From the NCBI GenBank assembly GCA_050273025.1, contig CP158635.1, positions 13,950,001-14,014,000 on the forward strand: DNA of 64,000 nucleotides. Direction: 5' to 3'. Shown here one piece after another: positions 1,446 through 47,835 of this stretch (position 1 is its first letter; the number at the start of each line of letters is the position of its first letter). Position numbers and translations under genes: made by a program. The notes beneath the pieces were generated by a model. It was not told the origin of the DNA and did not search any database. It was given only the letters and a program-made list of their open reading frames with translations. This DNA is from Cenococcum geophilum. Its lineage: Eukaryota.

Positions 1446-3550
1446 AGATCTTAGAAAAGGTAATAGCAGACCACATAGCAGACACGGCTAAGGAATACGC
1501 CTTACTACTACAGAGCTAAATAGGGGCAAGAAAGAACCGCTCAACACTATTAGCACTTACGCTACTCACTACCACCATTAAATCTGCATGGGCGATACGA
1601 AGGGACTTTGTAGTATCAATGCTCAGCCTAAATATCAGTAGCGCCTACAATAACATACCCTATAAGCGTCTCCTATATATCCTTAGGGCAAAAGGCTTTC
1701 TAGAATGGATTATATAATTTGTCCAAGGGTTTATAGGTTAGAAAGAAATATTATTAGTCTTTAGCGGATACTAGAGCCCCCCTATCGCAGTTGTAATAGG
1801 AATACTATAAGGATCACCCCTCTCGCCTATACTCTTCCTTTTCTTTATAAGTAACCTACTTAACTCCTTTAAGAAAGGGGCAACCCAGGGGATAGGCTTT
1901 GTTAACGACACAAACCTAATTATATACGGGCTATTAGCCGCAGAGAATTGCAGAATGCTAGAGAAAGCTTATAATACCTATATAGAATAGGCAAGATAAT
2001 ATAGAGTTTAATTCTTACTAGAGAAATACCAGCTAATCCATTTTATAAGAAAACGCAACCAATCTGCAAATCTCTAGCATATAATCCGCATTTAAGGCTT
2101 TGGGGGTTAACCAGTTCAGGGCCTAAGGGTATTAGAAGTATGGATAGACAGTAAGCTCTAGTGGAGCGTATATATAATATAAGCGGCCTATAAGGGCTAA
2201 GCATAGTATATTGCATTATCTAGGATTATTAATTCTATATAGGGCCCATGCTTCTAGAGGTTACGCCTACTATACATAGTAGTTGTCTGGCTAACCATAA
2301 CATATAGGTCCAGTATTTGGGCCATTAGAGAATCTAAGAAAGGCCTCCCTAAGTCACTCCTTAAACCACTCTAAAAGGTCTAAATAGCCTACCTCTAGAG
2401 TATAATAGGCGGATATAAGCAAACGGCCACAGTACTTCTTAAGAAGGAAGCTAATATTCCCCCCCTATAACTATATATTAAAGCCGCTGCAATATAAAGG
2501 GCCTAAAATAAACGCAACTCTAATATTATAAAGTATATTAAGACACGCCTAAACAAACTATGGAGGGACCCTAGGGCGCCCTATAGGAGAATAAACCAAC
2601 AACCCTAAAGTAGGGAAGATATATTAGAGAAACAGGTAAAGAAAGTAGAAGAAAAATAGTACTGCTTTAGGGCCCAGGCCTATATAGAGGAGAAAGGGAG
2701 ACGCGTAAGAGGCCAGTAAAGATAACAGTAAAAGAGAGAAAGGAGCTAAAGTAGAGCATAAAAGAATGCTAGGAAACCATCTACCGCAATATAATACTGG
2801 TTAGACTAACGCTAAAGAGGTGTATAGGAGTTAAAGGTATAGAGGCTAACTAAGGTAAGAGGAACCTAAGCCGTAGTATAGTTAACACTATAGGGGGTAA
2901 ACACTCTAGGGCTCCGAGGAGGCCTAACGAAGGCAAAAAATATAATAGCGATACTCTTAAGAATAGGAATAATAGGACTAAAAGACTGGCTCTACTGGGT
3001 AGGTATCTTAGTAGGTAGCCTAAGATGTAAATATGGCTAGCTAAGACAGACACCAAAACACGTAATACTATTATGCCCCTTACGCACTAACTAAGAAGTA
3101 ATACTTTTAGTAGCTAGTACAGAGAATTATAATACACTACTACTCTTAATATAAAAAGGCCTTAAGGCGGTTACCTAGTGGCTTATTAGCTAAAATATAC
3201 TAAACCAGTTCTGGGTTATAAGGGAAATAGTAATAGAGGGTAGGGGGGCGAGTAACGGGCGCCCCCTAATAACTCTATAGTAGTAAAGTAAAGTTTACGA
3301 TACTAGCGCGTCCATAGGCTTATTACGGCAGCAGTGGTTCCCAAGGAGGTCAAAAAGTAAGGTAGTAGGAGCACCACAGGTGACTCGCAGGCGCCTCGCA
3401 GGCGCCTCGCAGGCGAGTCCCAAAAGGCGGGGAGATGGATTACGGGGTTTTCTTAAATAGAGTTTTCTCCCCATATGTACATAAGGAGTAGTCCGCGTGG
3501 GCCCAATAGGGATCTAAATCGGACGTTAAGCAATGAATTATTATTATTAT
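1446..3550 (+). mobile_element. 5'-truncated LINE (family L-A, Tad1-like): RT domain to 3' UTR with (TTA)n tail
   Basis: RT motifs G...GSPLSPILFLFF and GFVNDTNL, plus a C-terminal C-x-C-x7-H-x4-C relic near 3025-3080. It ends AAGCAATGAATTATTATTATTAT and aligns to the copies at 10212-13238, 25231-30806 and 40199-47548. No TSD was found. Confidence 0.9.
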
Positions 3551-4448
3551 ATACTCTAATAGCTTTTTACTTTCCGGTGACTATAGTTTCTTACTATACT
3601 TATAGTATCTCTTTAGTACGTAACTTAGTCCTTTTTCTATTTCTTTATAGGTTGCTCCTACTTAGTACCATACTAACTTAGCTTATTATTACATCTTACG
3701 TTATTAAGTATCTCTAATATTAACTTAACCTATAATCTAATTAATCTTTAGATTATATTTCTGTAACTAAGGCATTCCTAATACTGCCTTATTATTTCCC
3801 AATGGTAATATATTAAAAGACATCTTAATTTATCTCCCTTTAATAGTTAGCTAAATAGGTCCTATTTTAAGATTAATAATCCCTCCTCTATAGTTTATTA
3901 GATATCCTAAAATTGTTACTAATAGGTAAGAATGCTCCTTTTTTCTATATGGTAAACCTATCCTTTTAACTACTACTAGTAAGATGTAGTTCCTTATTAC
4001 TCCACTATCTATTAATACCTTAAACTGTTAATCCTGCCACTTAATTTATAAATTTAGGTATTGTCCTTAAATTCCTTTAAGGGTCTAAGGCTCTACCACT
4101 AGCTCCCTCTGGTCCCGTAGGCCTCTACTTTTCCCAACTATTAGCTGCTTAATCCTATTTATACTTAGTCCGACTTAGGCTAATACTTAGTTCGCTTTTT
4201 ATCTTTAATATGCTATAGATACGTGTTCTCTAGGTATTTCCACCACTATCGTCTATCTAGGCATTCTTTTATAAGGAATCTTCCTAGTTAAAGTATTAAG
4301 TCGCCTAACTCCTAAACTTCTACTAGATGCCAGCTATGTATATACTTAGTATTTCTATACTTCTGCTCGTCTATTATCTAATATATTCTTATAGGATACT
4401 TATAGTGCTTATCCTTTGGTACTTTGTGTATATTACACACATTATCCA

Positions 4449-5930
4449 GTCCGTCGCCTCCCCTTTGCTCCTCCGTCCGTCGCCGCAAGGGCTCCGCCGG
4501 TTATATACCCCCTAAAGACACGTCACCACGACGCTAGCTACCACAACCAGTCTGCCACAGAGCAGACGACCTCCTCTACAACCAGTCTGCCGCAGGGCAG
4601 ACGACCTCCTCTACAACTGTCTGCCGTAGGGTAGACGACCTCTTCTATAACCAGTCTGCCGCAGGGCAGACGACCTCCTCTACAACTGTCTGCCGTAGGG
4701 TAGACGACCTCTTCTATAACCAGTCTGCCGCAGGGCAGACGACCTCCTCTATAACTGTCTGTCGCAGGGTAGACGACCTCTTCTACAACCAGTCTGCCGC
4801 AGGGCAGACGACCTCTTCTACAACTAGTCTGCCGCAGGGCAGACGACCTCTTCTACAACCAGTCTGCCGCAGGGCAGACGACCTCTTCTACAACCAGTCT
4901 GCCGTAGGGCAGACGACCTCTTCTACAACCAGTCTGCCGTAGGGCAGACGACCTCTTCTACAACCAGTCTGCCGCAGGGCAGACGACCTCTTCTATAACC
5001 AGTCTGCCGCAGGGCAGACGACCTCTTCTACAACCGTCTGCCGCAGGGCAGACGACCTCCTCTATAACTGTCTGCTATAGGGCAGACGACCTTTATAACC
5101 AGTCTGCTGCAGAGCAGACAACCTCCTACAATCAGTCTACAGCCGTTATACTATAGACGACCTCTACTGCAACCGGTCTACGGCTGTCGCGCTATAGGCA
5201 ATCAGACTATAGAGGACCGCAGGCGTACCGTAGGCGCACCGTAGGCGTACCGCAGACGATGCACTGCTAGGGTAGCTATAGTAGGGGATAGGGGAAGGGG
5301 ACTGGCCTGTGTTACCATTAGCACGTTAAATATAAGGTATATAGGCGAATTGGTGTTTATACCCTATACAGACAACCTCATAAAAATTTTCCTATGGGAG
5401 TGGGTTTACGTAACAAGGTTCGCCCTTATAAAATACCATTAGTAGGTTACTTTTAGGGAGAGTACCTACTAATTACTAATTCCCTACCCATTTCTTTAGC
5501 AAGGAGGAGGAATAGGGTATAGAATAAAACAGTTATATAGAGGTAATTAGTAGCTACTTTTAAGCTAGTAAGCTATATGGTTTCTCTTATTTTTTATATG
5601 CAAAACTACGTCAAAAATCTATCTTTTAGAGCGCTTTTTCTACTCTAGAAACGGCAGAATATGGCAGAAATATATAAAAGAGCCAGGATTTCCTTAGTGC
5701 GATTTTCTTGGTATAAACTAGACCATAGTAAGCAAAATATTAGGACAAAACACCAATAGGCTAGGAGCTCCCCCTAGTATTTAAAACGGGCCAGAGTGTC
5801 CACTTAGCTACTAGTACATGTTAAGCTGCCTAAAAAGGATTCATGTATATAGAACTATAGCGCCATAGCCTAGAGGCTGCATGCGCAGTATTGTACGTAG
5901 TATAATACGATCGGATATTTTAAAAAAAAA
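4449..5930 (+). mobile_element. Composite non-autonomous retroposon: 5' GC-rich leader + hairpin VNTR + unique region + L-C 3' tail + poly(A)
   Basis: TSD CACATTATCCA (4438-4448) / CATATTATCCA (5931-5941), with one RIP-type mismatch. 5805-5930 matches the 3' tail at about 8206-8366 and the reverse copies at 24313, 33711, 36806 and 38707. It ends in A9. Confidence 0.85.
4544..5200 (+). repeat. Tandem array of ~17 (+2 degenerate) 34-35-bp units CAACCAGTCTGCCGCAGGGCAGACGACCTCTTCTA, each with a GTCTGCC-4nt-GGCAGAC hairpin
   Basis: The period is 35 (AGTCTGCC at 4861, 4896, 4931). Units 2-7 alternate 35/34 bp, forming a 69-bp higher-order repeat. There are no spacers. Confidence 0.95.
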
Positions 5931-6220
5931 CATATTATCCACACATGCGATCTATAATAGTGTGTGATATGCTTAATGTCTTAGGTTAACTCTTAGCTTA
6001 TTTTTGTCCTTAAGTTTAAACCTTTGCTATATTAATCTAAGCGTTATAACTTTGTTCGCAGGTACTAAGATACGTCTCCCGCTTTTCTAGTCCTCTAAAC
6101 GCTCCTCTAAATCCTTTAATGTTATGATTAAGGCTCCTTTAATATGGTTTATGGCCTTTTCTATAATTAGGTAGTCTTGGATAACTTTTTCGTCCAGCTA
6201 TATATAGAAATATTTCCACA

Positions 6221-8366
6221 AAACCCTTCACCGCACATGCAACCTTACCAAAAGGTAGCGCCACACTCCAAAACTTACGCATACCCATCTTACCATCAAG
6301 AACAATCAATTTTCCAACTTTCAAGACCTAATTCCTACCGCCTAGCGAGCTAGAGGTGGATTTAGTCGTCGTCTTACCCCCTTTCCCTCAACAGAAAATT
6401 TTCCTAAGGGTGGCCCTAGCTTATAAGCGAGGCACAGACAGGAACACCAAAACTACTACTACTACCACTAATACCAAAACTACAAAATAGGGGCTAGCTT
6501 TTCTACTACCTTTTAGCCTAATTTTCCCCAGAAATCTTCTAGTAAGATTAGTAAGGAGAAAGGGTACAAGGATAGTATAAACTAGGAAACCCCCCTATAA
6601 AATGCCAAAGTCAAATAGGTAAAAAAAAAAGCCTCCTTTAGAAATAAGTGATCATCAGTCTAATATATTCACTTTTTCTCTCCCCTCTTCTTCTTCTTCT
6701 GGCCTATTTAAGGCAGGAGAAAAAAGAGGACATCCTCAGTCTTCTCCTGAAAATGAAAACCAAAACCAAAAACCTGCAAAAAAGATAACAAAACCAATAA
6801 TTACTACGGATAGTATACCTAGCATACCTTTCCCTCCCCTTTCTCCAAAACAACACCTATAAAAAGCTCTAGAAAGCCTAACTTAGGCCTATAAAGGGCT
6901 AGAAGAAGAAGAAAAAGAAGAAAAAGAACAAGTTAAATAGCTAGAGGACTACACACGGAGTATCCTAGCAGGAGAAACCCCCTTTATACAAGGAAAAGAA
7001 AAGGCAAAAGATATCCTAAGGGGACTAGTAGAAGAAGTAAGAGCTCTCTGTAAGGAGGTAGCTCCTACTAAGGAAACTTACGCAGAGAGGCTAAAGAAGG
7101 ACCTCCCTTCTTCGTCCTCCCTACCCTCCTCATTATCATCACCACCACTACCTTCTACCCCTTCTCCTTCTAGTAGGAGTTCTACTTCTACTAGAAGTAA
7201 GAAAAAGCAGCTACAAGAAAGGAAGCTAGTCCTAATTACAGACGAAAAGGACTAACCACTAAATACCTTCTCTATACGAAACAAAGTCAATTAACTATTT
7301 GTATTAAAACTGCAAGTAGAAAAGCTAGTACTAGCGTCTATAGCTAGAACCAAAGGAAAACAAAATATTCTCCTTATAACTACAGAAGAGTATAATGTGG
7401 ATTTCCTAGTTAAATATAAGGATATCTGGCGTAACTGCTTTACCTTTCAAAGAGAACAAAAACTGGAGCCCTGGGTTCAAATTATAGCCCATGGGGTTCC
7501 CACCCTACCTTTTCTAGGAGAGGGAGGCTCTAAGCTTCTAAAAGAAGAAATTGAGACCTTTAATCCTATAAAGATACAAGGGCTACCTAGATAGATCTCA
7601 TCTAGTGTAAAAAGACATGATCCGCAGACTAGATTTGGCTCTATAGTTTTTACTATAGAGAACGAGGAAAAAAGACAAGAAATCCTTAAGTAAAAAGAGA
7701 TCTCAATTGCAGGTACAGCTACTAAGGTAGTAAAATACCTCAAAGTCTCTCCTACTACGCAGTGCACTAGCTGCCAAAAATTTGGCCATATAGGAGACAG
7801 ATGCTCTACTAGAGCCTGTAGATTCTGTGCGGCTGCACATTTATCTAAAGACCACTGCTGTCCTACCTGTTTAATATTAGGCAGGCCTTGCAAGCACACT
7901 ACCCCTCTTTGCATTAATTGTAAGGAAGAACACTTTGCTAATAGTAAAGACTGCGAGAATCTTAGAGCAGCTAAACTAGTACATGAATAAAACAGATAGG
8001 ATTCTAGAAGGGGGTAACCCCTACTAGGCTCTTGGAAAAGATAATAGAGAGCAAAAGAAAAGAAATAAATTACAAAAGGACAGGGACAGGCGTTAGGATT
8101 TCCTATAGTTTTTTCCTACAGTTTTCTTATTCCCTAGTAGTTGTAGCAACTTAGTATCTTACTAAGGAGCTATAAACCCTTAGGGGTTTATAAACTATTA
8201 GGACATAGCTACTAGTACAGGTTAAGCTGCCTAGAAAGGATTCATGTATATAGAACTATAGCGCCATAGCCCAGAGGCTGCATGCGCAGTATTGTACGTA
8301 GTATAATACAACGGATATAAAAAAAAATAAAAATAAAAATAAAAAAAAAAAAAAAAAAAAAAAAAA
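6221..8366 (+). mobile_element. ORF1-only 'half-LINE' of family L-C (variant A), ~2.15 kb, long poly(A)
   Basis: It carries one gag-like frame, followed by a short 3' UTR shared with the L-C ORF2 3' fragments and a ~50-nt A-rich tail. A near-identical inverted copy lies at 33711-35824. Confidence 0.88.
6281..7990 (+). pseudogene. LINE ORF1 (gag-like nucleic-acid-binding protein with Cys/His knuckles), RIP stops
   Basis: The C-terminus reads QCTSCQKFGHIGDRCSTRACRFCAAAHLSKDHCCPTC..PCKHTTPLCINCKEEHFANSKDCENL..VHE*. The start is inferred from an in-frame ATA at 6281 (RIP of ATG) or the ATG at 6602. Confidence 0.75.
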
Positions 8367-9118
8367 GTAAGTCAAGCAGCCTTAATAAAAACCTTAGCCT
8401 ATGGCCAAAACCTAGTGGGAATAAAAGGTCCAATTAGGAAGGAAAAGAGTGTCTGCTAATTGATTTTGTTTATCAATTTTGTTTATCGATTTTATTTATC
8501 CATTGGTAGCAAGTTTATCTGCCTGACCAAATTCTTAAAAGTAGGTCTACTTAGTGCTTTGGTAAGCATATTAGCTAGCTATTCTTTCGTACTTATATGG
8601 CTTAGCTGTATTGTATTATTTGTTACGTGTTCTCGCACAAAGTGGTATTATATATTAATATGCTTGGTCTTAGCATAATGTTCTAGATTATTCGCCAATT
8701 CAATTGCTAATAGGCTGTCTGTGAACAAATAGAATTTTTCTTTATTTTCTATATTAAGCTGTTTAATAACGCTTATTAAATATAGATATTCCTTTACAGC
8801 CTCTTTTAGGGCCATATATTCAGCTTCACAGCTAAATAAAGCAACTGTTTTTTATAATTAACTTGCCTAGCTTATAGGGCTTCTACCAAATAAGAAGTAG
8901 TATGCGCTAGTTAATTTTCGACCTATTATATCACCCCCCCAATCTAAATCGCAGTAACCTAAAATATAAGGTTCTGATTGTCCAGAATAGGTAATTCCTA
9001 AGGTAGGGGTGTAATTTAGGTATTTCCAAATTTGATTTAGTGCCTGGTAATGTATTTTATTTAGATTTAATATAAATCTAGCACAGGTATTTACGTTATA
9101 GGCTATATCAGGCCTAGT

Positions 9119-12100
9119 GAAGGAACACTAAAAGCGAGATCCGACCCATACTGTCCTATGGGGGTTCCTTTCCGTCTTATCTTGTCTGTACGGTCAAGCT
9201 AAGAGTAAGGATCTCGTCTGTTACTAATGCAGCGGCGTTACGTCGTGGCTAGAGGGCGCTTTTGAATGCGTCGTCCTTGACGCCGTTAGAACAGCAGAGT
9301 TTTCGCGGGTCTTGGCGCTCGTTAACAACATAAGGCAACTTATTAAGAATAGAGGAATGGTCTTAAAAACTACCCGACGTCTCTCTACCTAGGCGCCGAC
9401 CTAGGGCCACAAGCCAGCGCTTGCATTTGCTGGTGGAAGCGATAGGAATCTAAGGAGACGACAGGGCACCTCTATACTTGTTCCGCTCTAAGACTATACC
9501 TATAGCGAGGGCATAGGAAGAATCTCAACACCGTTAACCACATTTAGCGACGTTAATCCTCCCTTTCTACGCAGCGGCGTTAACCTTTCTTTAGGCGGCG
9601 ACGTTAATCTAGAACGGACTAAGAAAGAGCTAGGGGCACCCTTCTCTAGGCGGCGACGTTAATCCGGAACGGACTAAGAAAGAGCTAGGACGAACCTGTA
9701 TAGGCAGGCTGGAACGGACTTAGATATAGGTATTGGTTAAGATGGGAGGACAACAAGTTTGGTTAGTAGGCGGCTGAGGGACAGTAGCTGCGCGGCGTCG
9801 AGTTATCATGGGCCCACGCCTGCAAGACACGGTCGGCCTGTCGTCGTGAGAGCGTCACAGGTAACGCGAAGCAGCCAACGGCTGTGGGGCGTGGTATATA
9901 ATGGCAGCGACGGACGACTCTAGGAACCTTACCCCTTTACTGGGCTCTAACTCCTAGTGGACCTGTCTCGGAGGAAGGATCAATACCTTGTCGACGACAC
10001 TGTCTATATAGCCCGAAAGGACGGATGCGCGTGTCGGTCTATTTAGGCAGGGGCAGGCTATAAGGATAGGCTTATGGAGCAAATCAGGTGCATATGGGTA
10101 GGAGCTGGCTTTGTCCACCAGCTGCTGCGTTAACCGTGGCAAGGAACTAGGCAAGCAGTTTAGGTAAACTTGCTATATATAGTAGTTCTACAATGCATAT
10201 ATATTCTAGGCAACTAAATAGAAAAAGATACGTAATAAGGAAGCTTAAGATAGACAGTTTCCTTAATATAGTTAAATAACAACTCTAAGACCTAGAAGAA
10301 ATCCACTTAATACTAAACAAGCGAGGCCTATTAACTACCCCCGAGGAAATTGATTGAAGACTAGAAAGGATTTAGGCAGCAATTAAAAATGGGCTAGAAA
10401 AGCACTGCCCAATCTTAAAACTGGGCCCCTATACGTAACACGTATAGTCTATATAATGCGCAGTTCTGGTTGCCAGCTAATGATAAGTAAGAAGGAAATA
10501 TATAAGTAGCCACGACCCTAAAGACGAGAGACGATATAAAGATATAAGAAACCAGCTAAAGAATACCCTAAAAAAAGAAGTAAGGAATAACTGGAGACGG
10601 TTTATAAATAAGCATACTTCTAACCTAAGCCTCCCCTATAACAAGGGCCTTTGGGATATAGCAAAATGGGTAAAGAAAAAGGTAGAGCGCCTAGTAGAAG
10701 ACCTATACCTACCACCCCTACGAAGAGCAGGAGAATTATAGGCTACAAATAATAATAATAAAAAGGCAAAGATCCTTATAGAAAGGTTCTTCCCCTAACT
10801 AGCTCTAGCAGACCTTAGTAATATTATAGGCGAAACACCGGTGACTTGCCTATAGGTTAACAGCGACATAATAATAGAGGAAATAGCTAGAACTATTAGC
10901 CGCCTTTTAAATAATATAGCACTAGGACTAGATAGGATTCCAAATAAGGCCCTAAAAACCTATGGGCCACTTATAGCACCTTAGCTTATAAATATAGCTA
11001 GAGCATACTTTACTATAGGCTACTACCCATAACTCGGAAGATCTATAACGACGGTTGTTCTATAAAAAGAAGGTAAAGTAGATTACTTAATCTTAGGAAG
11101 CTACCGCCCTATTGCCTTAAAAAACACCCTTAGTAAGATCTTAGAAAGGGTAATAGCGGAACGCATAGTAGACACGGTAGAGAAATACGCCTTACTACTA
11201 TAAAGCTAAATAGGGGCAAGAAAGAACCGCTTAACACTATTAGCACTTACGCTACTCGCTACCACTATTAAATCTGTATAGGCGATGCGAAAGGACTTTA
11301 TAGTATTAATAATTAGCCTAGATATTAGTAGTACCTATAATAATATACCCCACGAGCGTCTCCTGTATATCCTTAGGGTAAAGGGCTTCCTAGAATAGAT
11401 TATATAATTTGTCTAAGGGTTTATAGGCTAAAAAGAAATATTACTAGTCTTTAGCGGATACTAGAGCCCCCCTATTGCAGTTACAATAGGAATACCACAA
11501 AAATTACCCCTCTCGCCTATACTCTTCCTTTTCTTTATAAGCAACCTACTTAACTCTTTTAAGGAAGGGGCGACCTAGGGGATAGGCTTTGTTAATAATA
11601 TAAACCTAATTATATATGGGCTAATAGCCATAGAGAACTACAGAATACTAAAGAAAGCCTATAATACTTATATAGAGTAGGTAAAATGTTATAGAGTCTA
11701 ATTCTTACTAGAGAAATACTAGCTAATCTATTTTATAAGAAAACGCAACTAATCTGTAGATCTCTAGCATATAATTTATATTTAAGGCTTTAGGGGTTAA
11801 CTAGTTTAGGGCCTAAGGGTATTAGGAGTATGGGTAGACAGTAAGCTCTAGTAGAGCGTATACGCGGCGTAAGCGGCCTATAAAGGCTAAGTATAGTTTA
11901 TCGCTTTATTTAGGATTATTAATTTTATATAGGGTCCATGCTGCTAGAGGTTATGCCTACTATATACAGCAGTCGTCCGGCCAACTATAATATATAGATT
12001 TAGTATCTGGGCCATTAGAGAAACTAAGAAGGGCCCCCTAAAATTACTCCTTAAACTACTTTAAAAGGTCTAAATAGCCTACCTTTAGAGTATTACAGGC

Positions 12101-13238: not shown

Positions 13239-14258
13239 TATATTAGGCCTAGTCTTTATAGATAAGTATATTAGGCTTCCTACTTCTTATTAATACTATT
13301 TTATATCTTTAGGAGAGGCCTATTCTATATTCTTTTCCATTTTTAAGTTAATAATTCTAGGGGTAGATACTGGATTTAGATTTTGTTTATTAAACCTTTA
13401 TAAGATATTTTAGGTATATTTCTTTTAGTTTAATTTTATAACCTTATTTTTGCGATCTCTAGTAATTCCTATACCTAGGAAATAGGAAACTAGTCCTAAA
13501 TTTGTTAATTCTAGGTCTTTGCCTAGTTTTGTTTAAATTTTATTTATTTATTTAATATTTAGGCCAAATACTAGTAGATCGTCTACATGGCAGATTATTA
13601 TAATACCTAGTATATCATTTTTAAATACTGCCTAATCTGTAAAGATAGGATAAAATCCTTCTTTTTCAAGGTTATTTGCTAGGTGGTTATACTATATTCT
13701 TAGTAATTATTTTAGGCTATATAGAGCTTTATTTAATTTATATACCTTATTTAGTATTATAGTAACACCTTCTGGTTGTTCTATATATAGCTCTTTATCT
13801 ATATTAGCGTGCGTAAACGCATTTTTAAAGTCCTATTATACTATTTCCCAATTATGGTAAGCTGCTAAATATAGTAGCATTTTATACACTTCTGGGCGGT
13901 AAGTATTTGCGAAGGTTTCTTTATAATCTATGCCATATTACTAACTAAAGCCTTTTACTACCTATCTGGCTTTATATTTGATTATTTAGTTATTTTAATC
14001 TATTTTAATCTTATACACCTATTAAGTTTTTAAAGCCTTTCTATTAGGTAGTAGATCAACAATATTCTAGGTCTTTTATTTTTTAAGTTAATCAATTTCT
14101 ACACCCATTGCTATTTGCCAATTTAGCCAATTATGCAATTTTATAGCTTCTCTATAGGACCTTGGTTTATTTTAATTAGTTCCTAGGAGAGCTAGTTTAT
14201 CTATATTATTATCCTCTAATTCACTAGATTAATTTATTCTTAATATTTAATTTTGTCT

Positions 14259-17200
14259 GGTGCAATAGAAAAAGCCGCTATAGTAGCAGAACACGCCCAC
14301 CAATTACCTAATAGAGAAATAACCACCTCCAATTAAATCTACGGCATTTTATGCCCTAGAACCAATACATGCAGCACAGCCGGAAAGCCTACGCGACATA
14401 GGAGGGTCGTAGCAGACTCAAAGGGTGGGCGCTGTACAGAAAATCGCGACACCACAACAAACCCAATAGGGGGCGACTTAACCATAACAACTAAAGGACA
14501 ATGACTAGAATTGGCAGAAACTTGTGGACCTTCTAAAGAACATTAAGGACGATTTAGGGAAGGGAGAGGACGAACGCCCACGCGTAGGGGTAGCGCGTGT
14601 GGTATAATAAGCAGGCCTTATTATATAAGAGCTCTAGACAAAGCATAATAGGAACTAGAACGCGGTAGAGGATAGGCTTAGGCGCATTAAGGATGCTATA
14701 AAATTATAGAGAACACTAATAGTATAAGTAGCAAAGCTAATATAGGCTAATATTACCGCAAGCACCTAACTGGTGACTCCCTAGCGTATACCTAGCGTAG
14801 CACTAGTCAGAGCCACGGTTAGGGTCTAAATACTAGAAGTATTAGGGGCGGACCTAGAACAGATTCTTATATCGATTAAAATATATATACCAAAGGTAGT
14901 GGCAGTAAGGGTCCTACGCAGCGGTAATATAGAGGTTACGCTCCCTAACTAGCAGGTAAAGGACCAGACTATTACCTAGGGAGATACCCCTAAGTATAAG
15001 ATCCTCCGCTAGGACTACCTAGTTGAAGTAATGGGAGTACCACTTAGTACATAAGTAGAAAGCGGACGAGGCGCTATAAATACACAGCTTATTTAGAGGA
15101 TTACAGAGGCTACCAAAAAACTAGCTTCCGGAATTACTATAACTAGAGTCGCATGGCTCTATAAAGAACGTATAACGTATATAGGAGAATTACTAAGGTT
15201 CCAAAAGGTTAAAACGCGCGGTATTTTAATAATTAACCTACTAACTTAAGAGATATAGGCAATAGTAGCCCATAAAGGAGTAGTTATAGACAGCCTTTAG
15301 TATAAAGCCCGGCTATACCACTACGGAGTCTAAGTCCGATAATGCTTTAGATACTAATAATAGGGATATACCTAGAACGCATGCGGGAAGTAAGTAAGGT
15401 GCGGAGAGTACGCCGATAACTATAATACTAGGGACTACCCTAAGGATAAGGGAGTTAGATACGTGAATTACGGAAAAGAATATAAAGTAAGGCAGAAGGC
15501 GGAATATAAAACCTACTAGGTATACCTAGAAGCCACTAGGATAAGACAAGCCTAACTACACTAAATTACAGCCACGCTCTAGGGAAACGCATATAAGGAG
15601 AAGGAGACAAGTAGGGTAAATAATGGTGGCTAGATAATTAAACAGCGGAAGAGAACTAGGATACCTACCCTAATAGGAGCAGCCTCTGCCTAACTAGCAG
15701 CAAAATAAGCCGTAGGACGCCCGTAAGGTAGCACTAACGCCGCTAGAAACCTATCCTAATAAAGAATCCTAATTATAGCGGCCCTAAGTAAAACGCCCTA
15801 GATATAAATAGAAGACGCCTATAAGTCACTAGACAAACTATAAAAGGATTAACAACAATATAATATAACTATGGACACTTAAACTACAGAGCAACACGCC
15901 CTCTATTTAACAGCCTAGACCTAAAAGAACACTAAATAATAGCCCTATAGGAGCTAGCGTATAATAAACAAACCCGTAAAATATACTAACTAAAAGGATA
16001 TTACCTCCTATATAAACCAAACCCATTTACCCGCATATACTTCCTAATTAGCCAACGCATTAATATATAGGCCTAGAGCTATCACACTATTAGCCCTAAT
16101 ATAGCTAAACTATAAATAGCTACAAATAGGGGCTAAATTAGTATAATTAATGTCTATAACCTAAGCGACAACAGGCCCTAGATAACCACGTGGGGGCTAC
16201 TCTAATAAACAATTAATATAGCAGAAGGCGAGATAATAGTCCTAGGGGACTTTAATACACACTATACAGCATAGGGAGGACAGCAGGCCATAGTAAAAGT
16301 ATAGGCGACTTACCTACTTAACGAACTAGAAACGCGAGGCCTTGCCCTAACTACCCTAATAGGTGAACCTACCTAGAAAAGAGGAACCTAAGAGAGTATA
16401 ATTGACCTTATATTTATGCATAAAGCACTAGTAAACCGGCTAGCTTTCTATGGGCTAGAGAATATATAGGCAATAACTGCAGACTATATACCTATACAGA
16501 TAACCCTTAATGTTAACGCACTAGCGTAATAAACCCGCCAGAGATACGCCATCTAGAAACTTAATTAGGAAAAATATACCTAGGAAATCACTAATAGGCT
16601 AGTAATAATACCTTAGGTAATGCTAGAGGATATCTAGAAGACTATAAGCAACTACCTAGATAAGTACTACCTAATAGCCTAGCCTAGCAAACATGCCCGG
16701 CGCGAATGGTCACTAAAGGCAGTGCAGATACTCATAGGCTTAAGGAGGGCAAGGCGATAGTACAGTGAGACGGGCGAGGTCCACCACTAATAGAGTTATA
16801 AAGCCCTAAAGAATAGGCTTAAGAAGATAATATGGAAGGAGAGCAGAAACAGCTAGCGCTAATTCCTTAAGGAAATTATTTTAAACCCCACTAAGCTATA
16901 TAACTAGGGACTCTGGCAAATATTAAAGTGGAGTAGGCGAGCCGCAGGGGAAATGTTAGGGGACCCCTACTTACCCGCACTATGTTAGACAGTATATAAC
17001 TAGTATATAAATAACAATGGGGAAAAAATAAGAATACTAGTAAAGAGGTTCTTTCTAGGCGTAGGCCAAGTAGACTTATAGGACATTAGCAACTAAGACT
17101 ACCCCCTACCCCTAGAGATAAGCTAGATAGTCTTAATAAAGGACATAAAAGAAGCTATTTGGAAGCTCCCTATAGGCAAAGTAGTAGGACTAGACAGGAT

Positions 17201-19470
17201 CCTAAATAAGGCAATTAAGGCTGCGTTAGAAGCCCTAGCAATACTACTAGTAAACGCTGTATCTACCTACCTATACGAAGGCAATCTACCAGACTGCTAT
17301 AAAGTAATAACTATAGTCATCTTAAGAAAGCTAAATAAAAAGGACTACTCTCTCCCAGGAAGTTACTAACCAATTACCCTTAAAAATACGCTAGAAAAGC
17401 TTCTAGAAAAGATAGTTACAGAGCATATATAAGACGCCGTAGAGGAGCAAGGACTACTACTATAGATATAAATAGGCGTAAGAAAGAAGCAATCAACCCT
17501 TTTAGCCCTCTCCCTAATTACCTCTAGCGTCTAGGCGGCGTAGCAAGCCCGCCTAAAATGCGTAGTATCTATACTTAGCTTAGACCTAAGTAAAGCCTTC
17601 GACAACGTATTATATAAGAGACTCCTATAGATCCTAAGAAAGAAGGGTCTACTAGAATAAATAGTTAAGTTTATATAAGCCTTTCTAATAGGGCGCACTA
17701 TTAAGATAGTATTCGAGGGCTACAAAAGTGAATTAATACCAACACCTACAGGCATCCTACAGGGGTCGCCCCTATCGCTAATCCTGTTCTTATTCTTTAT
17801 ATCTAAGCTACTAGAGACATTTAAGAGCAACTAGGAAATAGTAGCTTTAGGATTTATAGATAATACAAACCTAATTATATAGGGAAACATAGTAGCAGAA
17901 AACTGTACTAGACTAAACTAGGCGTATAATAGGTGCGTCGTATAGGTAAAACGGCATAGTGCTAAATTTATACTAGATAAATACCAGCTTATCTATTTTA
18001 TAAGGAAAAGGAGGGTGAATAATAACCTAGCGTTAATAGTAAGCATTTAGGGCTGCGAAGCAAAACCAGAAGCCACCCTTAAGGTCCTAGGGGTATAGGT
18101 AGACGCTAGACTAAACTGGAATGCGTATATTATATAGGCGACTTATAGGGGAGCAGTAGCATTCGCAGCGATATTGCGTATCGTAGCCTCGACCTAGGGA
18201 CCCTTATTTAGATGTATACGACTACTATACACAGCTGTAGTAAGGCCAACAATGCTATACGGCGCCTAGATCTGGGGCGTAGACCTAAAAGGCAAGCCAC
18301 TAGCAAAAAGCTCCCTAAAGCCACTAGTTAAACTACAAAACTAATGCCTACGTAGAATTATAGGGGCCTATAAGAGGACACCACGTGCCGCACTAGAACG
18401 TAAAGTAGTAGTACCTCTACTAGACATATATACAGACACAATTGCTATGTAGAGAGTAGCTACAGTATAAGACCACCTAGTAGAGAAGGATATACGCCAA
18501 ATACTTAATCGTATATAAGGAGTAAGGGCCCCCTAGAGGGGTAACGCGCCTAAGCTTATAAGCTAGAAAGCCCTCCGCCTATATGCGGTAGAGAAAGAAT
18601 AGGAAATATGGGAGCTACTATAACACTAAGCGGAGACCCGGCGCTACGCCGGCGGAGTGCTACCACGGCAGCAGAGGATAGGAGGCCACTAGCATAAGTG
18701 GAGATCTACTACATGTATCGCAAGATGGGTAGATATTAAGTGGAACTAATAATGGAAGAAGGCGGCAAAAACATAGAGGGCAGCCATATGGATTACCCTA
18801 TGGATAATACTAACTCTCCCCCTATATGAAGGACAGACGAAGGTAGAATCTACAGCCGCCTTCCTATTAAGGACAGAGGTTTTAGGGCTAAATGTATGGC
18901 TAGCAAGCATCTATGTCCCAAATATTACGCCATACTGTACGTGCGGATGGCCTATATAGTTAGTACGCCACGTACTACTATTCTACAACTAACGCACTGC
19001 AAGAAACCAGTTGTTCGCTAGAGCAGGCACAAATGATATTACCCGAATGCTCTCTATAAGCAGGGGTCTACATAAAGTAGCACAATGGCTTATAAGCTAA
19101 GGAGTCCTTCAGCAGTTCCAGACAGCAAATGAGATCCAGTAGGAGGACACTAAAGGATACGCCCCCTTCTAGTCCCTTAGAGACTGGACACCCCCTACCT
19201 AGTTGAAGGTGGCACGCCGGCGAATTACCAAACCCTTCTACTACCCCCTAGATCTTCTAAGACACCTTAGAAGCATGGTACGTAAGGTAGACATTATATA
19301 AAGGTATATAGGCTAGGCGAAGGCGGAGCGCGTAAGACTAGCTAAAAGGATATACCTAGGTTTTCCCCCCTAGGGGGTTTTTCCTATATATAGAAGGTAG
19401 AAGCCTGCATGGACCTAAAAAAAAAAGGGGACCGAATCGGGCGATAAATAGAATTAATAATAATAATAAT
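14259..19470 (+). mobile_element. Near full-length LINE family L-B (Tad1-like): ORF1 with zinc-knuckle relics, ORF2 APE-RT-CCHC, (TAA)n tail
   Basis: Endonuclease motifs VLGDFNT.Y.A.G and SIIDL.F; RT GILQGSPLSLILFLF; C-terminal CTCG..VRHVLL. It ends AAATAGAATTAATAATAATAATAAT. No TSD was found. Confidence 0.9.
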
Positions 19471-20504
19471 ATGTCCGATTTTAATATAATTAATTAATAC
19501 ATCAGTTCCCCAACCAATTTTCCCATAGAAATCTTTAAAGCTTATAAAGTATTCCTTTTTAGTCATTAGATACTTAGTAGCTCCTAAGTCTAATACAAAA
19601 TTAGCTCCTTTTTAATTTAGTTAGGGGTTTTTATTAGTAATAAGTACCTAATTAGTATCCATTAGATTAAGATTAATTTCAAAATTATCTTCTTCTATAT
19701 TACTAGGATAGTTATTACTAGTATTTATAGACATAAGAGCTTCTTAAGGTTTTAGCTTATATTAGTGCTTAGTTTTAAAGCCTTTAGGGCCTTTTTAGAA
19801 AATAGATAAAAACAGTCCTTTATAGAATACGTAGTTATTCTACACTTCTTATAGTACTTATTTTTATATATTTAATTTGTCTAATTATTCCTAGGTTGTC
19901 TAGACCCTATAACCAAAGCTATTTCCTAATCTTTAGATACCTGTCTTCTAGATTTATCCAGCAAGTTAGAAAATAGGTTTTCTAAGTTAATAGTACTAGA
20001 ATTGGTTCTATAAGATTAGGTAAGCATTATAATAAATCCCTCATAAGGACTAGTTAGGTTATTTAAAACCCAAGCAATAATCACCTAATTTGGCAATTCT
20101 ATGCCTTTAGCTTTCAATTAGTCGGTAAATTACTTCACTTTATTTAAATACTCCTTCATAAAAGAGTATTTAGATAAGGTGGTCTTAAAAAGCTCTTTAT
20201 AGATTAAGAATTCCGAGCTAAACCCTTTTAGGCTATAAAGATTTTTTAACAGTTTCTATACTTCTAGAGCTGTTTTAGAATACCGTATTTGCAAGAGAGG
20301 TTTATCCTTAATTGTTAGCCTTATATTAGGTAAGGCTTTTTAGTTAATTTCCCCTTTTGGGGTAACTCCTTCTTCTATAGCATTACTAAGCAATCCTTTT
20401 ATAAGAAGTGATTGGACCTAAAGGCTCTAGACTTTGTAGTTAGATTGCCCAATAAGCTTTTTAATTAAGATTTTGTCTAATATTTTATCTGCAAATAGAT
20501 AAAT

Positions 20505-20672
20505 AGAATTTAAACAATAGGATTAAACAGATAAAATTAAATAATAGGATTTGGACAAGTAGAATTGAATAATAGGATTTAAACAAGTATAATCGAATAA
20601 TAGGATTTAAATAAGTAGAATTAAATAATAGGATTTGGACAAGTAGAATTAAATAATAGGATTTAGACAATT
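20505..20672. repeat. 28-bp tandem repeat in the Copia C-A 5' UTR (AAATAATAGGATTT.GACAAGTAGAAT.)
   Basis: About 5-6 imperfect units; the same array is at 31875-32095. Confidence 0.85.
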
Positions 20673-20944
20673 AAATAAAATTAAATAAACAGATAGATTA
20701 AATAATATATACTTTAGATTCGATCAAAATTCAATTAAGATTTAAATAGGATTTAAACAAAATTTAACTTAAAGTAAAATTTAAGTAAAAGTAAAATAGA
20801 GATAAAATTAACTTAAGATCTAGTTCAGATTTAATCAAAAAATTAGTTAATAATTAATTAATATTTAATTAAGGTCAGATTTTGTCGTTTTAGTTAAAAA
20901 TTAATTAAGATTTGGTTAAGGTTAGAGCAGCCAGGCTTATAACC

Positions 20945-21314
20945 TGTAAATTTGCGTAAGCAGAGGTCGGAGGACGACAGGGTGAATAATATAGTGAAGT
21001 AAGTGAAGTGGATAAACTTGATGTAATTGATAATGTCTATCTACGGGGGATTAAGTCTCTATATACCTGGAAGACCCTAATTCCAGAACGTCTACGTTCC
21101 GTCTTATATTCTAATACGTTACCTGATATACTAGGTAATACGTTACCTAATATACTAGGTAATACATTACCTAATACACTAGGTAATACGTTACTTGATA
21201 TACTAGCTAATACACTAGCTGATACCATCTAATACACCGCGTAAAGCCGTAGGGTTCTTCCAGGGTGTTCTTATGTAATGCTTACATAAGCAACATCAGA
21301 GATTATCATTGACA
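20945..21314 (-). repeat. Copia C-A 5' LTR (370 bp) with internal 24-bp VNTR; PBS GGTTAT(A/G)AGCC adjacent at 20934-20944
   Basis: TG...CA termini; homologous to the LTRs at 32368, 33187, 33620 and 37508. Confidence 0.9.
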
Positions 21315-22094
21315 GCCCCTACTAAGGAAATATACGCAGAGAGGCTAAATAAGAGCCTCCCTACTTCGTCCTCTCTACCCTCGTCACTACCGTCTCCTAC
21401 CCCTTCTACTTCTACTAGAAGTAAGAAAAAACAGCTATAAGAAAGGAAACTAGTCTTAATTACAGACGAAGAGGACTAAATTCTAGATACCTTCTATATA
21501 CGAAATAAAGTTAATTAACTATTTGTATTAAAACTGCAAGTAAAAAAGCTAGTACTAGCGTCCATAGCTAGAACTAAAGGAAAACAAAATATTCTCCTTA
21601 TAACTACAGAAGAGTATAATGCGGATTTCCTAGTTAAATATAAGGATATCTGGCATAATTGCTTTACTTTCTAAAGAGAACAAAAACTAGAACTATAGGT
21701 TCAAATTATAGCCTATGGGGTTCCTATAATACCGTTTCTAGGAGAAGGAGGCTCTAAGCTTCTAAAAGAAGAAATTGAGACTTTTAATCCTATAAGGATA
21801 CAAGGACTACCTAGATAGATCTTATCTAGTGTAAAAAGACACGATCTACAGACTAGATTTGGCTCTATAGTTTTTACTATGGAGAATAAGGAAAAAAGAC
21901 AAGAAATCCTCAAGTAAAAAGAGATATTATTTGCAGGTACAGCTACTAAGGTAGTAAAATACCTTGAAGTCTCTCCTACTACGCAGTGCACTAGCTACCA
22001 AAAATTCGGCCATATAGGAGATAGATGCTCTATTAGGGCCTGTAGATTTTATGCGGCTGTACATTTATCTAAAGACCACTACTGCCCTACTTGT
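21315..22094 (+). mobile_element. Internal fragment of L-C ORF1 (target of Copia C-A copy 1)
   Basis: Aligns to about 7061-7870. Confidence 0.85.
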
Positions 22095-32095: not shown

Positions 32096-32367
32096 AAATA
32101 AAATTAAATAAATAGATAGATTAAATAATATATACTTCAGATTTGATTAAGATTTAATTAAGATTCAAATAGGATTCAAACAAGATTTAACTTAAAGTAA
32201 AATTTAAGTGAAAGTAAAATAGAGATGAAATTGACTTAAGATCTAGTTCAGATTTAATCAAAAAATTAGTCAACAATTAATTAATATTTGATTAAGGTCA
32301 GATTTTGTCGTTTTAGTTAAAAATTAATTGAGATTTAGTTAAGGTTAGAGCAGCCAGGCTTATAACC

Positions 32368-32805
32368 TGTTAATTTGCGTAAGCGGAGGTCGGAGGACGA
32401 CAGGGTGAACGATGTAGTAAAGTAAGTAAAGTAGATGAACTTGATGCAATTGATGATGTCTATCTGCGGAGGATCGAGTCTCTATATACCTGGAAGACCC
32501 TAGTTCCGGAACGTCTACATTCCGTCTCGTATTCTAATACGTTACCTAATACACTAGGTAATACGTTACCTAACACACTATGTAATATATTACCTAATAC
32601 ACAAGGTGATACGTTACCTAATACACTAGTTAATATACTAGCTAATACCATCTAATATACTAGTTAATACACTAGCTGATACCATCTAATACACTAGTTA
32701 ATACACTAGCTAATACCATCTAATACACCGCGTAAAGCCGTAGGGTTCTTCCAGGGTGTTCTTATATAACGCTTATATAAGCAACATTAGAGATCATCAT
32801 TGACA
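32368..32805 (-). repeat. Copia C-A 5' LTR (438 bp)
   Basis: TGTTAA...TTGACA termini with adjacent PBS at 32357-32367. Confidence 0.9.
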
Positions 32806-33614: not shown

Positions 33615-33710
33615 CATTATATCAATGATGATCTCTAATATTGCTTATATAAGCATTATATAAGAACACCCTGGAAGAACCCTACGGCTTTACGCGGTGT
33701 ATTAGATGGT

Positions 33711-47730: not shown

Positions 47731-47835
47731 CTTGCTTACTTTAAGCAATAAATAAGTATTGCTCTTTCTACGCGGTTAGTGCAAAATAAATTATATTATT
47801 TTAGATAATTTAATATAATATAGCGATGGTTCTCC

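What the first reader, a model, noticed from the sequence alone, without database searches (positions are those of the whole stretch)
4449..5930. SVA-like composite retroposon: hairpin VNTR + unique sequence + borrowed LINE 3' tail
Seen: a 1.48-kb non-coding unit bounded by an 11-bp TSD splits a Gypsy reading frame, which is restored when the unit is removed. It has a GC-rich leader, ~17-19 hairpin repeats, an 11-bp repeat (5217-5255), ~550 bp of unique sequence, only the last ~125 nt of LINE L-C, and poly(A). Established: TSD plus poly(A) plus a LINE tail is the signature of target-primed reverse transcription. Loose precedents are primate SVA (VNTR-containing composite) and the Magnaporthe MINE chimeras (WEIRD sequence fused to MGL 3' ends). 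Inference: this is either a dispersed non-autonomous retroposon family mobilised by L-C ORF2, or a structured ncRNA captured by RT template switching. I see no tRNA- or 5S-derived head.
Basis: partly seen in the sequence, partly recalled or inferred. Interest (0 to 1): 0.85.

Follow-up and report, generated by a model that had tools for sequence, protein, structure and literature searches.

The report
Hairpin-repeat retroposon with borrowed tail
This 1.5-kb non-coding insert is one copy of a large, actively transcribed family of fungal jumping elements that borrow the tail of another element to get copied, and the family's longest members begin with what looks like a self-cutting RNA.

Summary
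Window 4449-5930 is a retroposed insert with an 11-bp target duplication (one C>T change), a poly(A) end, a 35-nt hairpin repeat array, an 11-nt repeat, about 550 nt of unique sequence, and a 3' tail of about 125 nt shared with five other poly(A)-ended elements in the window.

It is not a one-off. A metagenome scan returned 52 loci carrying the same unit. Twenty-four copies run colinearly through the same body/tail junction. Eight loci plus the window have clean, different 11-15-nt duplications. The repeat number varies, giving elements of 1.0-1.5 kb.

RNA libraries cover the element but not its flanks, which are more abundant in DNA. Reads come mostly from one strand.

- The tail donor "L-C" is a 2.1-kb ORF1-only retroposon. 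No reverse-transcriptase-bearing element with this tail was found in 608 kb.
- 7 of 34 copies carry a 1.74-kb non-coding 5' extension. Its first 87 nt fit the HDV-like self-cleaving ribozyme fold, with sub-threshold Rfam scores, and start exactly at the retroposed 5' end.

Verdict: a real non-autonomous, LINE-dependent retroposon family, SVA-like or SIDE-like in design. The window copy is the short form.

The parts
4438..4448 (+). left copy of the target-site duplication (CACATTATCCA)
4449..4542 (+). GC-rich leader. Its first 26 nt (4449-4474) are one unit of a 26-nt repeat that other copies and the transcripts carry in 1 to 4 or more copies.
   Evidence: (873 reads 'go back 26')
4543..5138 (+). 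35-nt repeat array, 17.3 units. Each unit holds a 7-bp stem with a 4-nt loop (GTCTGCC GCAG GGCAGAC).
5139..5215 (+). degenerate terminal repeat units and spacer
   Evidence: loose ends at 4588 and 4617 join here in the expressed copies
5216..5252 (+). 11-nt repeat (ACCGYAGGCGY, 3.4 units). The same YRYAGGCG core at the same period is found elsewhere only in the 3' UTR of the RT-bearing LINE 'L-A'.
5253..5801 (+). unique non-coding body, conserved among copies (column identity 0.87-0.98)
5802..5921 (+). 3' tail shared with the L-C retroposon, with three predicted stem-loops
5922..5930 (+). poly(A)
5931..5941 (+). right copy of the target-site duplication (CATATTATCCA)
3548..4448 (-). host LTR-retroelement fragment (gag/protease region, full of stops), left of the insert. 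It continues at 5931-6219.
6221..8336 (+). L-C, a 2.1-kb poly(A) retroposon with an ORF1-like frame (CCHC knuckles) and no RT. It is the tail donor or co-user. A sister copy lies at 33710-35825(-) with the 11-bp duplication CCATCTAATAC.

Best explanation
Window 4449-5930 is one short-form copy of a high-copy, transcribed, non-coding retroposon family of a fungus.

The RNA runs leader (26-nt repeats), 35-nt hairpin array, unique body, 125-nt tail, poly(A). The reverse transcriptase and endonuclease of a LINE copy it into new sites in trans. That LINE's 3' module is the same 125-nt tail. Insertion leaves 11-15-nt target duplications.

The tail was fused to the body once, and the fused unit then amplified.

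Short forms most likely start at a transcription start inside the 26-nt leader repeats (inferred). A minority long form adds 1.74 kb of non-coding 5' sequence. Its 5' end is most likely made by an HDV-like self-cleaving ribozyme (inferred from fold and position).

Shown: insertion, family, fixed junction, duplications, variable repeat number, RNA presence. Inferred: which enzyme moves it, Pol II transcription, the promoter role of the leader, and ribozyme activity.
For: - Insertion with an empty paralogous site.
- 52 loci from two metagenome assemblies hold the hairpin unit. 24 locus copies are colinear across the body/tail junction and none ends at it.
- The family profile matches the six L-C copies only from profile position 612-615 of 742.
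- Duplications of 11-15 nt with at most 1 mismatch, all different, abut the ends in the window and in 8 of 11 locus copies tested (12 boundaries, because L035 was tested at both its short and long boundary). Weaker duplications occur in L014 and L049.
- 27 short-form 5' flanks are all different. By my reading of the output, 17 of 27 start at the first G of a 26-mer.
- Element length ranges 1021-1482 nt with 8-21 repeat anchors in 12 full copies.
- DNA runs X1 and X5 give thousands of short contigs over the whole unit. RNA run X8 covers all 23 element bins and none of the 7 flank bins, although the flanks have higher DNA depth. In raw RNA reads (X21) the first mate lies on '-' about 10-300 times more often than on '+' over the leader and body. 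357 reads extend 5' of 4449 into another 26-mer.
- The L-C copy at 33710-35825 has an 11-bp duplication, the same size class.
- Long form: L035 7790-10879 is flanked by (A)AAGCTCCCTAAT on both sides and splits an LTR element with a 13-nt overlap.
- Six long copies start at the same G with unrelated upstream flanks.
- Rfam matches over full model length at that terminus: RF02682 at 31.8 bits (E=1.6e-4 in 201 nt) and RF00094 at 28.1 bits.
- In the proposed ribozyme fold, P1, P1.1 and P3 are 100% paired, P2 is 94% and P4 is 81%.
Against: - No RT-bearing element with this tail was seen in 608 kb. All 33 full tails belong to this family or to ORF1-only L-C, so the mobilising enzyme is unidentified.
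- Both ribozyme scores are below Rfam's gathering cut-offs (44 and 50).
- The six ribozyme copies are 95% alike. Covariation is uninformative, with 1 double change reached by 102 of 500 shuffles.
- The hairpin stems show no strand-specific wobble excess (138 G-U-type against 135 A-C-type cells), so selection on an RNA hairpin is not shown.
- RNA strand assignment assumes a dUTP-type library.
- Logan word depth is not a copy number.
- The loci were selected for the hairpin unit, so the long:short ratio and the absence of solo extensions are biased.
- Zero RNA depth on this copy's flanks does not exclude read-through at other copies.
Confidence: 0.8

Rival explanations
1. The 3.1-kb ribozyme-headed long form is the only replicating master. 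Short forms such as the window copy are dead-on-arrival 5'-truncated cDNAs that stop at the leader, for example because the enzyme falls off after the hairpin array.
For: Long forms are complete retroposed units (L035 duplication). 5' truncation is usual for LINE-driven copies (established knowledge). 7 of 27 short copies are truncated by a further 4-14 nt.
Against: By my reading, 17 of 27 short copies start at the same nucleotide of a 26-mer. Three copies (L018, L021, L025) and most RNA reads (873 'goes back 26' joints; 357 loose ends reading another 26-mer rather than the extension) carry 2 or more 26-mers, while no long form seen has more than about one. Two long forms (L010, L048) lack the leader altogether, yet share a subfamily marker with leader-bearing short copies.
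Confidence: 0.2
2. Long forms are repeated template-switch chimeras. While copying a short-form RNA, the enzyme jumps near its 5' end onto the 3' end of a separate ribozyme-processed 1.74-kb RNA, as in MINE or U6-L1 chimeras.
For: The extension always ends at ...ACTACCTGCC, but the short-form part starts at four different points: leader -3 (L035), +4 (L006, L050), +12 (L015), and the first hairpin unit (L010, L048). The MINE precedent has a full-length 5' RNA joined to variably truncated 3' parts (PMC2104539, abstract and section 5). R2 template jumps are reported (PMC3414825, abstract).
Against: No solo copy of the extension was seen, but the loci were chosen for the hairpin unit, so this is weak. 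The junction sequences share CCTCC-like microhomology, so small deletions or slippage explain them equally well. Distances among extensions are star-like and do not discriminate.
Confidence: 0.3
3. The family is an internally deleted derivative of an autonomous LINE (SIDE-like). The ribozyme, extension, leader and repeats would be that LINE's 5' UTR, and the tail its 3' UTR.
For: R2 SIDEs keep a 5' ribozyme and a 3' end (PMC3414825, abstract). NARTc shares the L1Tc ribozyme head (PMC3185411, passages). L-C shows that deletion derivatives with this tail exist.
Against: No element in the window or the 52 loci joins any of the 5' parts to an ORF. The one 6-kb interruption (L001) is an unrelated LTR element with 370-nt terminal repeats and a 5-nt overlap. 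The L-C 5' end is unrelated. The ribozyme model finds only the six long forms.
Confidence: 0.15
4. A one-off chimera or captured cellular RNA, not a family.
For: None after the searches. Within the window alone the body is single-copy.
Against: 34 copies in 608 kb with different flanks and duplications. Thousands of contigs in DNA runs.
Confidence: 0.01

Closest known systems
Primate SVA (recalled, no call)
   Same: Non-coding composite retroposon of 1-3 kb. It has short repeats at the 5' end, an internal variable-number tandem repeat, a unique part, poly(A), and target duplications of LINE size. It is moved in trans, and copies differ in repeat number.
   Different: No sequence relation. The 3' end here is a LINE-type tail, not an LTR-derived SINE-R. 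The repeat unit is a 35-nt hairpin. The host is a fungus. A ribozyme-headed long form exists.
SINEs with LINE-derived 3' tails, the 'stringent' LINE/SINE pairs (PMC3747384, search listing only; otherwise recalled)
   Same: The last ~125 nt are shared with another retroposon family and end in poly(A). The tail is the presumed recognition module for the reverse transcriptase.
   Different: There is no tRNA, 5S or 7SL head. The length is 1.0-3.1 kb with T-runs, so Pol III transcription is unlikely (inference). The sharer seen here (L-C) has no RT.
Magnaporthe MINE (WEIRD-MGL chimeras; PMC2104539, abstract and section 5)
   Same: A fungal non-coding RNA of about 1.1 kb joined to a LINE 3' end, flanked by 10-20-bp repeats and transcribed. 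No solo copy of the 5' RNA is known.
   Different: MINE carries 5'-truncated MGL parts of variable length made by repeated template switches. Here the body/tail junction is identical in all 24 copies that cross it. Variable junctions occur only between the 5' extension and the short form.
Drosophila R2 and R2/R1 SIDEs, and Trypanosoma NARTc (PMC3414825, abstract; PMC3185411, passages; PMC3383444 and PMC4035085, listing only)
   Same: Non-autonomous retroposons whose 5' end carries an HDV-like ribozyme and whose 3' end carries the module used for target-primed reverse transcription. Hybrid SIDEs combine parts from two elements.
   Different: Those are short and have a known autonomous parent with the same ribozyme. 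Here the parent is unknown, the ribozyme is untested, most copies lack it, and the element inserts at dispersed sites.
Mouse L1 5' monomers and mammalian HAL1 (both recalled, no call)
   Same: Like mouse L1 monomers, the tandem 5' units vary in number among copies, and copies start at unit boundaries. Like HAL1, L-C is an ORF1-only LINE derivative.
   Different: The units here are 26 nt and 35 nt rather than ~200 nt. Promoter activity is not tested.

Membership tests
LINE-dependent non-autonomous retroposon (TPRT-mobilised) | Target-site duplication of LINE size flanking the unit, different at each locus | tested here: met
   The window plus 8 of 11 locus copies tested (12 boundaries; L035 at both short and long) have duplications of 11-15 nt with at most 1 mismatch, all different.
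LINE-dependent non-autonomous retroposon (TPRT-mobilised) | 3' poly(A) or A-rich end | tested here: met
   All 13 locus 3' ends printed, and the window copy, end in A-rich runs.
LINE-dependent non-autonomous retroposon (TPRT-mobilised) | No coding capacity of its own | tested here: met
   The only ORF over 120 aa is the repeat array read through. No Pfam match in the extension and no ORF over 157 aa.
LINE-dependent non-autonomous retroposon (TPRT-mobilised) | 3' module shared with an autonomous LINE of the same genome | tested here: inconclusive
   The tail is shared with L-C, but L-C has only an ORF1-like frame. No RT-bearing carrier was found in 608 kb. No whole genome is held.
SINE in the strict sense | Pol III head derived from tRNA, 5S, 7SL or an snRNA | tested here: not met
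   ARAGORN found none. Rfam found none in the window copy or in five other copies.
SVA-type composite retroposon | Internal tandem repeat whose unit number varies among copies | tested here: met
   8-21 anchors and element lengths of 1021-1482 nt in 12 copies. Joints skip 390-482 nt or go back 34-381 nt in reads and contigs.
SVA-type composite retroposon | Homology to SVA parts (Alu-like, SINE-R) | not tested
   No SVA, Repbase or Dfam library was searched. The Rfam searches, which returned nothing, are the only related scans and do not hold SVA parts. Given a fungal host, the resemblance is treated as architectural only (inference).
MINE-type template-switch chimera | Variable junction between the 5' RNA and the LINE part | tested here: not met
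   24 of 24 locus copies that reach the junction cross it colinearly. Tail matches start at L-C 8203 or 8206 in all 25.
HDV-like self-cleaving ribozyme (long form only; absent from the window copy) | Nested double pseudoknot: 7-bp P1 starting with G.U, P1.1, P2, 3-bp P3, P4, and a C in J4/2 | tested here: met
   Rfam alignments cover the full length of both models. P1, P1.1 and P3 are 100% paired, P2 94% and P4 81% in six copies, against 33-56% for slid controls. The list of defining helices is recalled.
HDV-like self-cleaving ribozyme (long form only; absent from the window copy) | Score at or above Rfam's gathering threshold | tested here: not met
   RF02682 scored 31.8 against 44 and RF00094 scored 28.1 against 50.
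HDV-like self-cleaving ribozyme (long form only; absent from the window copy) | Cleavage site coincides with the 5' end of the element | tested here: met
   Homology among six copies starts at the G of P1. In L035 the target duplication ends directly before it.
HDV-like self-cleaving ribozyme (long form only; absent from the window copy) | Self-cleavage activity | not testable with these tools
   Needs an in vitro co-transcriptional cleavage assay.

The most novel reading that the evidence does not exclude
A fungal retroposon family forms its 5' end in two ways. A short form is driven by a promoter in its 26-nt repeats, and a long form is released by an HDV-like ribozyme. Together with a gag-only (ORF1-only) retroposon, both parasitise one unseen LINE through the same 125-nt tail, forming a guild of non-autonomous elements that outnumber and out-express their provider. 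This would be the first ribozyme-headed, VNTR-bearing, SVA-like element reported in fungi.
Probability: 0.35. Interest if true: 0.65.

Novelty: new variant of a known kind. Interest (0 to 1): 0.55.

Why it matters
Non-autonomous retroposons of fungi are mostly known as small tRNA- or 5S-derived SINEs, or as MINE chimeras. This family is different. It has an SVA-like architecture, is abundant, and is strongly represented in RNA from fungus- and root-associated samples.

Three consequences follow:
- It shows that a 125-nt 3' module is enough to be shared by two unrelated parasitic families. That points to a stringent, tail-recognising LINE that can now be searched for.
- The candidate ribozyme would extend HDV-like 5'-end processing to fungal retroposons and is directly testable in vitro.
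- In practice, such units are likely to sit in repeat libraries as 'unclassified'. They break assemblies: many contigs here end inside the hairpin array.

Tried and rejected
- Whole genome: none is held. The records behind the loci are not searchable.
- Earlier findings of the scan: nothing by place or by three sequences.
- Rfam: no hit for the window copy. For five other copies the only hit was a chance-level mir-32 match, E=0.12. The whole window gave only a chance-level PinT match, so there is no ribozyme or known RNA in the short form or in the window's LINEs.
- tRNA scan: none.
- Pfam: nothing on L-C read through its stops. Nothing on the extension.
- Autonomous version in L001: rejected. 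The 5.96-kb insert is an LTR element.
- Distant homology between the body and L-C or other repeats: none upstream of the junction.
- Partial tails elsewhere: none.
- RNA-level selection on the hairpins: no wobble asymmetry.
- Tail structure: three stem-loops are predicted, but the double changes are RIP-type and shared by descent, so they do not count as proof. Single-sequence folds are not better than shuffles (z=-1.6 and -1.8).
- Ribozyme covariation: uninformative. My own covariance model found only its six training copies.
- Distances among extensions: star-like, with no lineage signal.
- Literature: four searches found no VNTR-bearing LINE-tailed fungal retroposon and no HDV-like ribozyme on a fungal retroposon. 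The library holds only CC-licensed PMC papers and bioRxiv. Repbase and Dfam could not be searched.
Full report
1. THE OBSERVATION

- Flanks: CACATTATCCA (4438-4448) and CATATTATCCA (5931-5941), 11 nt with one C>T difference.
- 3' end: poly(A) at 5922-5930.
- Repeats: a 35-nt repeat at 4543-5138 (17.3 units, 88% matches) and an 11-nt repeat at 5216-5252 (3.4 units).
- Composition: GC rises to 0.55-0.58 over the leader and repeats, against 0.26-0.40 around it.
- Tail: only 5802-5930 recurs in the window. It matches five other places at 89-93% identity, each followed by an A-rich run. Those five share further upstream sequence with one another but not with this unit.
- Empty site: a paralog of the host element at 53413-54591 lacks the insert. 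With the insert and one duplication copy removed, the host reads colinearly with that paralog in all frames. Both are riddled with stops.
- Host: an LTR-element gag/protease fragment by a weak Pfam match only (PF13975, E=0.0022, below its cut-off).

2. IS IT A FAMILY?

No genome is held for the window. I used public reads and metagenome contigs instead.

Twenty sequencing runs from 13 studies hold part of the unit, six of them recorded as RNA. I laid four runs on 4200-6200.
- The two DNA runs place 7492 and 4259 short contigs over the whole unit, mostly at 90-99% identity.
- Joints skip 390-482 nt or go back 34-381 nt inside the array.

A scan of JGI metagenome contigs with one 24-nt hairpin unit returned 52 loci (544 kb) from two assemblies.
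- BLAST of the unit shows the same order of parts in all of them.
- 24 locus copies cross position 5805 in one colinear alignment (L002, L003, L004, L008, L010, L012, L014, L019, L024, L025, L028, L030, L031, L033, L034, L035, L038, L039, L041, L042, L045, L047, L049, L051).
- L001 is split at that point by a 5.96-kb LTR element with a 5-nt overlap.
- L023 breaks off at position 5647. L050 is cut by its contig end before the junction (L030, above, is cut after it, at 5844).
- All 25 tail-only matches to L-C begin at L-C position 8203 or 8206.
- A profile of the family matches the six L-C copies only from profile position 612-615 of 742.

The body/tail junction is therefore fixed.

Target duplications of 11-15 nt with at most one mismatch abut the ends in the window and in L003, L019, L024, L025, L028, L042, L051 and L035 (long form).
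- L014 and L049 have weaker ones.
- L038 and L010 have none that I could recognise.
- All the duplications differ, so these are independent insertions.

Full copies measure 1021-1482 nt with 8-21 repeat anchors. The window copy is the longest of the 12.

Copies differ from their consensus mainly by transitions: 854 of 1087 differences, of which 560 are C>T or G>A. This fits RIP-like decay.

3. TRANSCRIPTION

In the metatranscriptome contigs (X8) all 23 bins of the unit have depth and all 7 flank bins have none. Those flanks have higher word depth than the unit in both DNA runs, so DNA carry-over does not explain the signal.

The tail bin 5808-5874 is about 15-20 times deeper than the body in DNA but about equal to it in X8. 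Per copy, this family is therefore much better represented in RNA than the other tail carriers.

In raw RNA reads (X21) the first mate lies on '-' far more often than on '+':
- 173-433 against 0.6-20 over the leader;
- 34-44 against 0.15-7.7 in the best-covered body bins.
One strand is transcribed. It is the poly(A) strand if the library is of the usual dUTP type, which I could not check.

357 reads run on 5' of 4449 into another 26-mer, and 873 show a 'goes back 26' joint. The expressed copies therefore carry at least two leader units.

358 reads leave the array after one or two hairpin units and continue into the terminal degenerate units. The main expressed variant in that run therefore has a very short array.

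This copy's silent flanks do not exclude read-through at other copies. The strand bias argues against random read-through.

4. THE 5' END

Thirty-one leaders were found, including the window's. Four of them, plus L010, L048 and L016, belong to long forms (section 6). That leaves 27 short forms, each with a different upstream flank.

By my reading of the output:
- 15 start at the first G of a single 26-mer.
- L021 and L025 start there with two units.
- L018 has at least four units.
- L005 and L009 carry part of a further unit.
- 7 lack 4-14 nt.

A start that keeps to unit boundaries whatever the number of units fits a start site inside the repeat, as in mouse L1 monomers (recalled), better than random truncation. 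This is inference.

5. THE TAIL AND ITS OTHER CARRIER

'L-C' is not an autonomous LINE as seen here.
- Structure: the longest copies (6221-8336 and 33710-35825, 96.6% alike) are 2.1 kb. They hold an ORF1-like frame with CCHC knuckles, followed after about 330 nt by poly(A). The 1.4-kb copy at 38703-40024 and the L011 copy are colinear through the ORF1-to-tail stretch.
- Same 5' end: three copies with unrelated upstream flanks start at the same nucleotide.
- Duplication: the copy at 33710-35825 has the 11-bp duplication CCATCTAATAC.

L-C is thus itself a discrete ORF1-only retroposon, comparable to mammalian HAL1 (recalled).

The window does hold RT-bearing LINEs (about 25265-30818 and copies, and about 14300-21300), read by eye from the translations printed. 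Their 3' ends are different, for example (TTA)n. All 33 full tails in 608 kb belong to this family or to L-C, and no partial tail exists elsewhere. The enzyme provider is therefore unidentified.

The tail folds into three stem-loops that are kept in 28 copies. The few double changes are RIP-type and shared by descent, so this is compatible with a recognition structure but does not prove one.

6. THE LONG FORM

Seven copies (L006, L010, L015, L016, L035, L048, L050) carry about 1.74 kb directly upstream of the leader or array.
- It is non-coding: no ORF over 157 aa, no Pfam match, GC 0.50-0.54.
- No poly(A) separates it from the short-form part.
- In L035 the whole 3.1 kb (7790-10879) is flanked by (A)AAGCTCCCTAAT and splits an LTR element with a 13-nt overlap, so it retroposed as one unit.
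- Six copies begin at the same G (GCCCGCGAAGCCC...) after unrelated flanks.

Rfam places two HDV-type models over their full length exactly at this terminus:
- RF02682 at 31.8 bits, E=1.6e-4 in a 201-nt search;
- RF00094 at 28.1 bits, E=0.16 in the 1.9-kb search.
Both are below their gathering scores.

The sequence supplies every helix of the fold as I recall it:
- a 7-bp P1 opening with G.U;
- a 3-bp P3 with a 7-nt loop;
- a two-pair P1.1;
- a 6-bp P2;
- a 12-position P4;
- GGC(U/C)AAG in J4/2.

Pairing in the six copies is 100% in P1, P1.1 and P3, 94% in P2 and 81% in P4, against 33-56% for slid controls. Covariation is uninformative because the copies are 95% alike. The structure was also derived from these same sequences, which flatters it. 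A covariance model built from the six finds no further copy in 608 kb.

The coincidence of the predicted cleavage site with an independently defined retroposon 5' end is the main argument. I put the ribozyme at about 0.7.

Precedents for ribozyme-headed non-autonomous retroposons:
- R2 and R2/R1 SIDEs (PMC3414825, abstract);
- NARTc (PMC3185411, passages).

7. HOW THE TWO FORMS RELATE IS OPEN

The extension always ends at ...ACTACCTGCC, but the short-form part begins at leader -3, +4, +12 or at the first hairpin unit. This is the pattern of template-jump chimeras (PMC2104539, abstract and section 5). The junctions also share CCTCC-like microhomology, which small deletions would explain equally well. 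Distances among the extensions are star-like.

Short forms with two to four 26-mers, and the RNA reads, argue that short forms replicate on their own.

8. THE HAIRPINS

Across 463 units, 91% of stem positions pair, against 29-38% when the partner is shifted. G-U-type and A-C-type departures are equal (138 against 135), so the palindrome is kept but selection on the RNA strand is not shown. The role of the hairpins (promoter repeats, protein binding, or a plain minisatellite) is unknown.

9. COMPARISON AND NOVELTY

The element works like a LINE-dependent non-autonomous retroposon.
- It fails the strict SINE test, having no Pol III head.
- It fails the MINE test, having a fixed junction.
- In architecture it is closest to SVA (recalled). 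In its long form it is closest to SIDEs and NARTc.

Four literature searches found no fungal element of this design and no HDV-like ribozyme on a fungal retroposon. The library is limited to open-licence papers and preprints, and Repbase and Dfam could not be consulted.

I rate it a new variant of a known kind, with interest 0.55. The finding is real and richer than first read, but its core mechanism is conventional.

Noticed in passing
window 6221-8336 (+) and 33710-35825 (-); also 38703-40024, 21314-22097, L011 1951-4508, L021 2533-3699: 'L-C' is a discrete ORF1-only (CCHC-knuckle) poly(A) retroposon of about 2.1 kb. It has a constant 5' end in three unrelated flanks and an 11-bp duplication (CCATCTAATAC) in one copy. 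No RT was seen. In DNA runs its tail is about 15-20 times deeper than the hairpin element's body.
   Followed up: partly
window 5216-5252 versus 3386-3430, 13062, 30636, 47375; L025 9006: Two YRYAGGCG cores spaced 11 nt apart occur 73 times in 608 kb. All are either in this family's 11-nt repeat or in the 3' UTR of the RT-bearing LINE 'L-A', about 150 nt before its (TTA)n end. This may be a shared protein-binding motif or a borrowed piece. nhmmer sees no wider homology.
   Followed up: partly
window 20938-21314, 32361-32807, 33185-33621(-), 36126-36399(-), 37508-37909(-): A ~430-nt unit containing 12/24-nt tandem repeats (TAATACGTTACC-like) recurs five times, always next to L-C pieces. One L-C copy is inserted in it with a duplication. 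It may be a preferred L-C target or part of a larger composite.
   Followed up: no
window 13239-14258 and 22196-23212: Direct repeats of 1.02 kb (92.7% identity) flank a 7.9-kb stretch that holds a LINE-type RT, 28-nt and 12-nt repeat arrays, and an L-C fragment. The nature of this arrangement is unexplained.
   Followed up: no
L001 129-6087; L049 2402-8398; L035 2568-7789 + 10880-11618: A ~5.96-kb LTR retrotransposon with ~370-nt terminal repeats is common in the loci. It has inserted into one hairpin-element copy (L001, 5-nt overlap) and is itself split by the long form in L035.
   Followed up: partly
loci, region equivalent to window 5180-5215: There are two subfamilies of the element. One has TATAGGCAATCARACTATAGAGG before the 11-nt repeat (this includes the window copy). 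The other has GGCTGTCGCGCTACAGGCAGAGG. Long forms occur in both.
   Followed up: partly
window 47792-48430, 48589-48963, 61278-61652: Dense tandem arrays with periods of 8/12, 20 and 64 nt lie in another repeat family. They were not examined.
   Followed up: no
L045 7031/7032: One copy has a 216-nt internal deletion of the body (window-equivalent 5347-5562). L035 1662-2414 holds an older copy at 73-84% identity.
   Followed up: no
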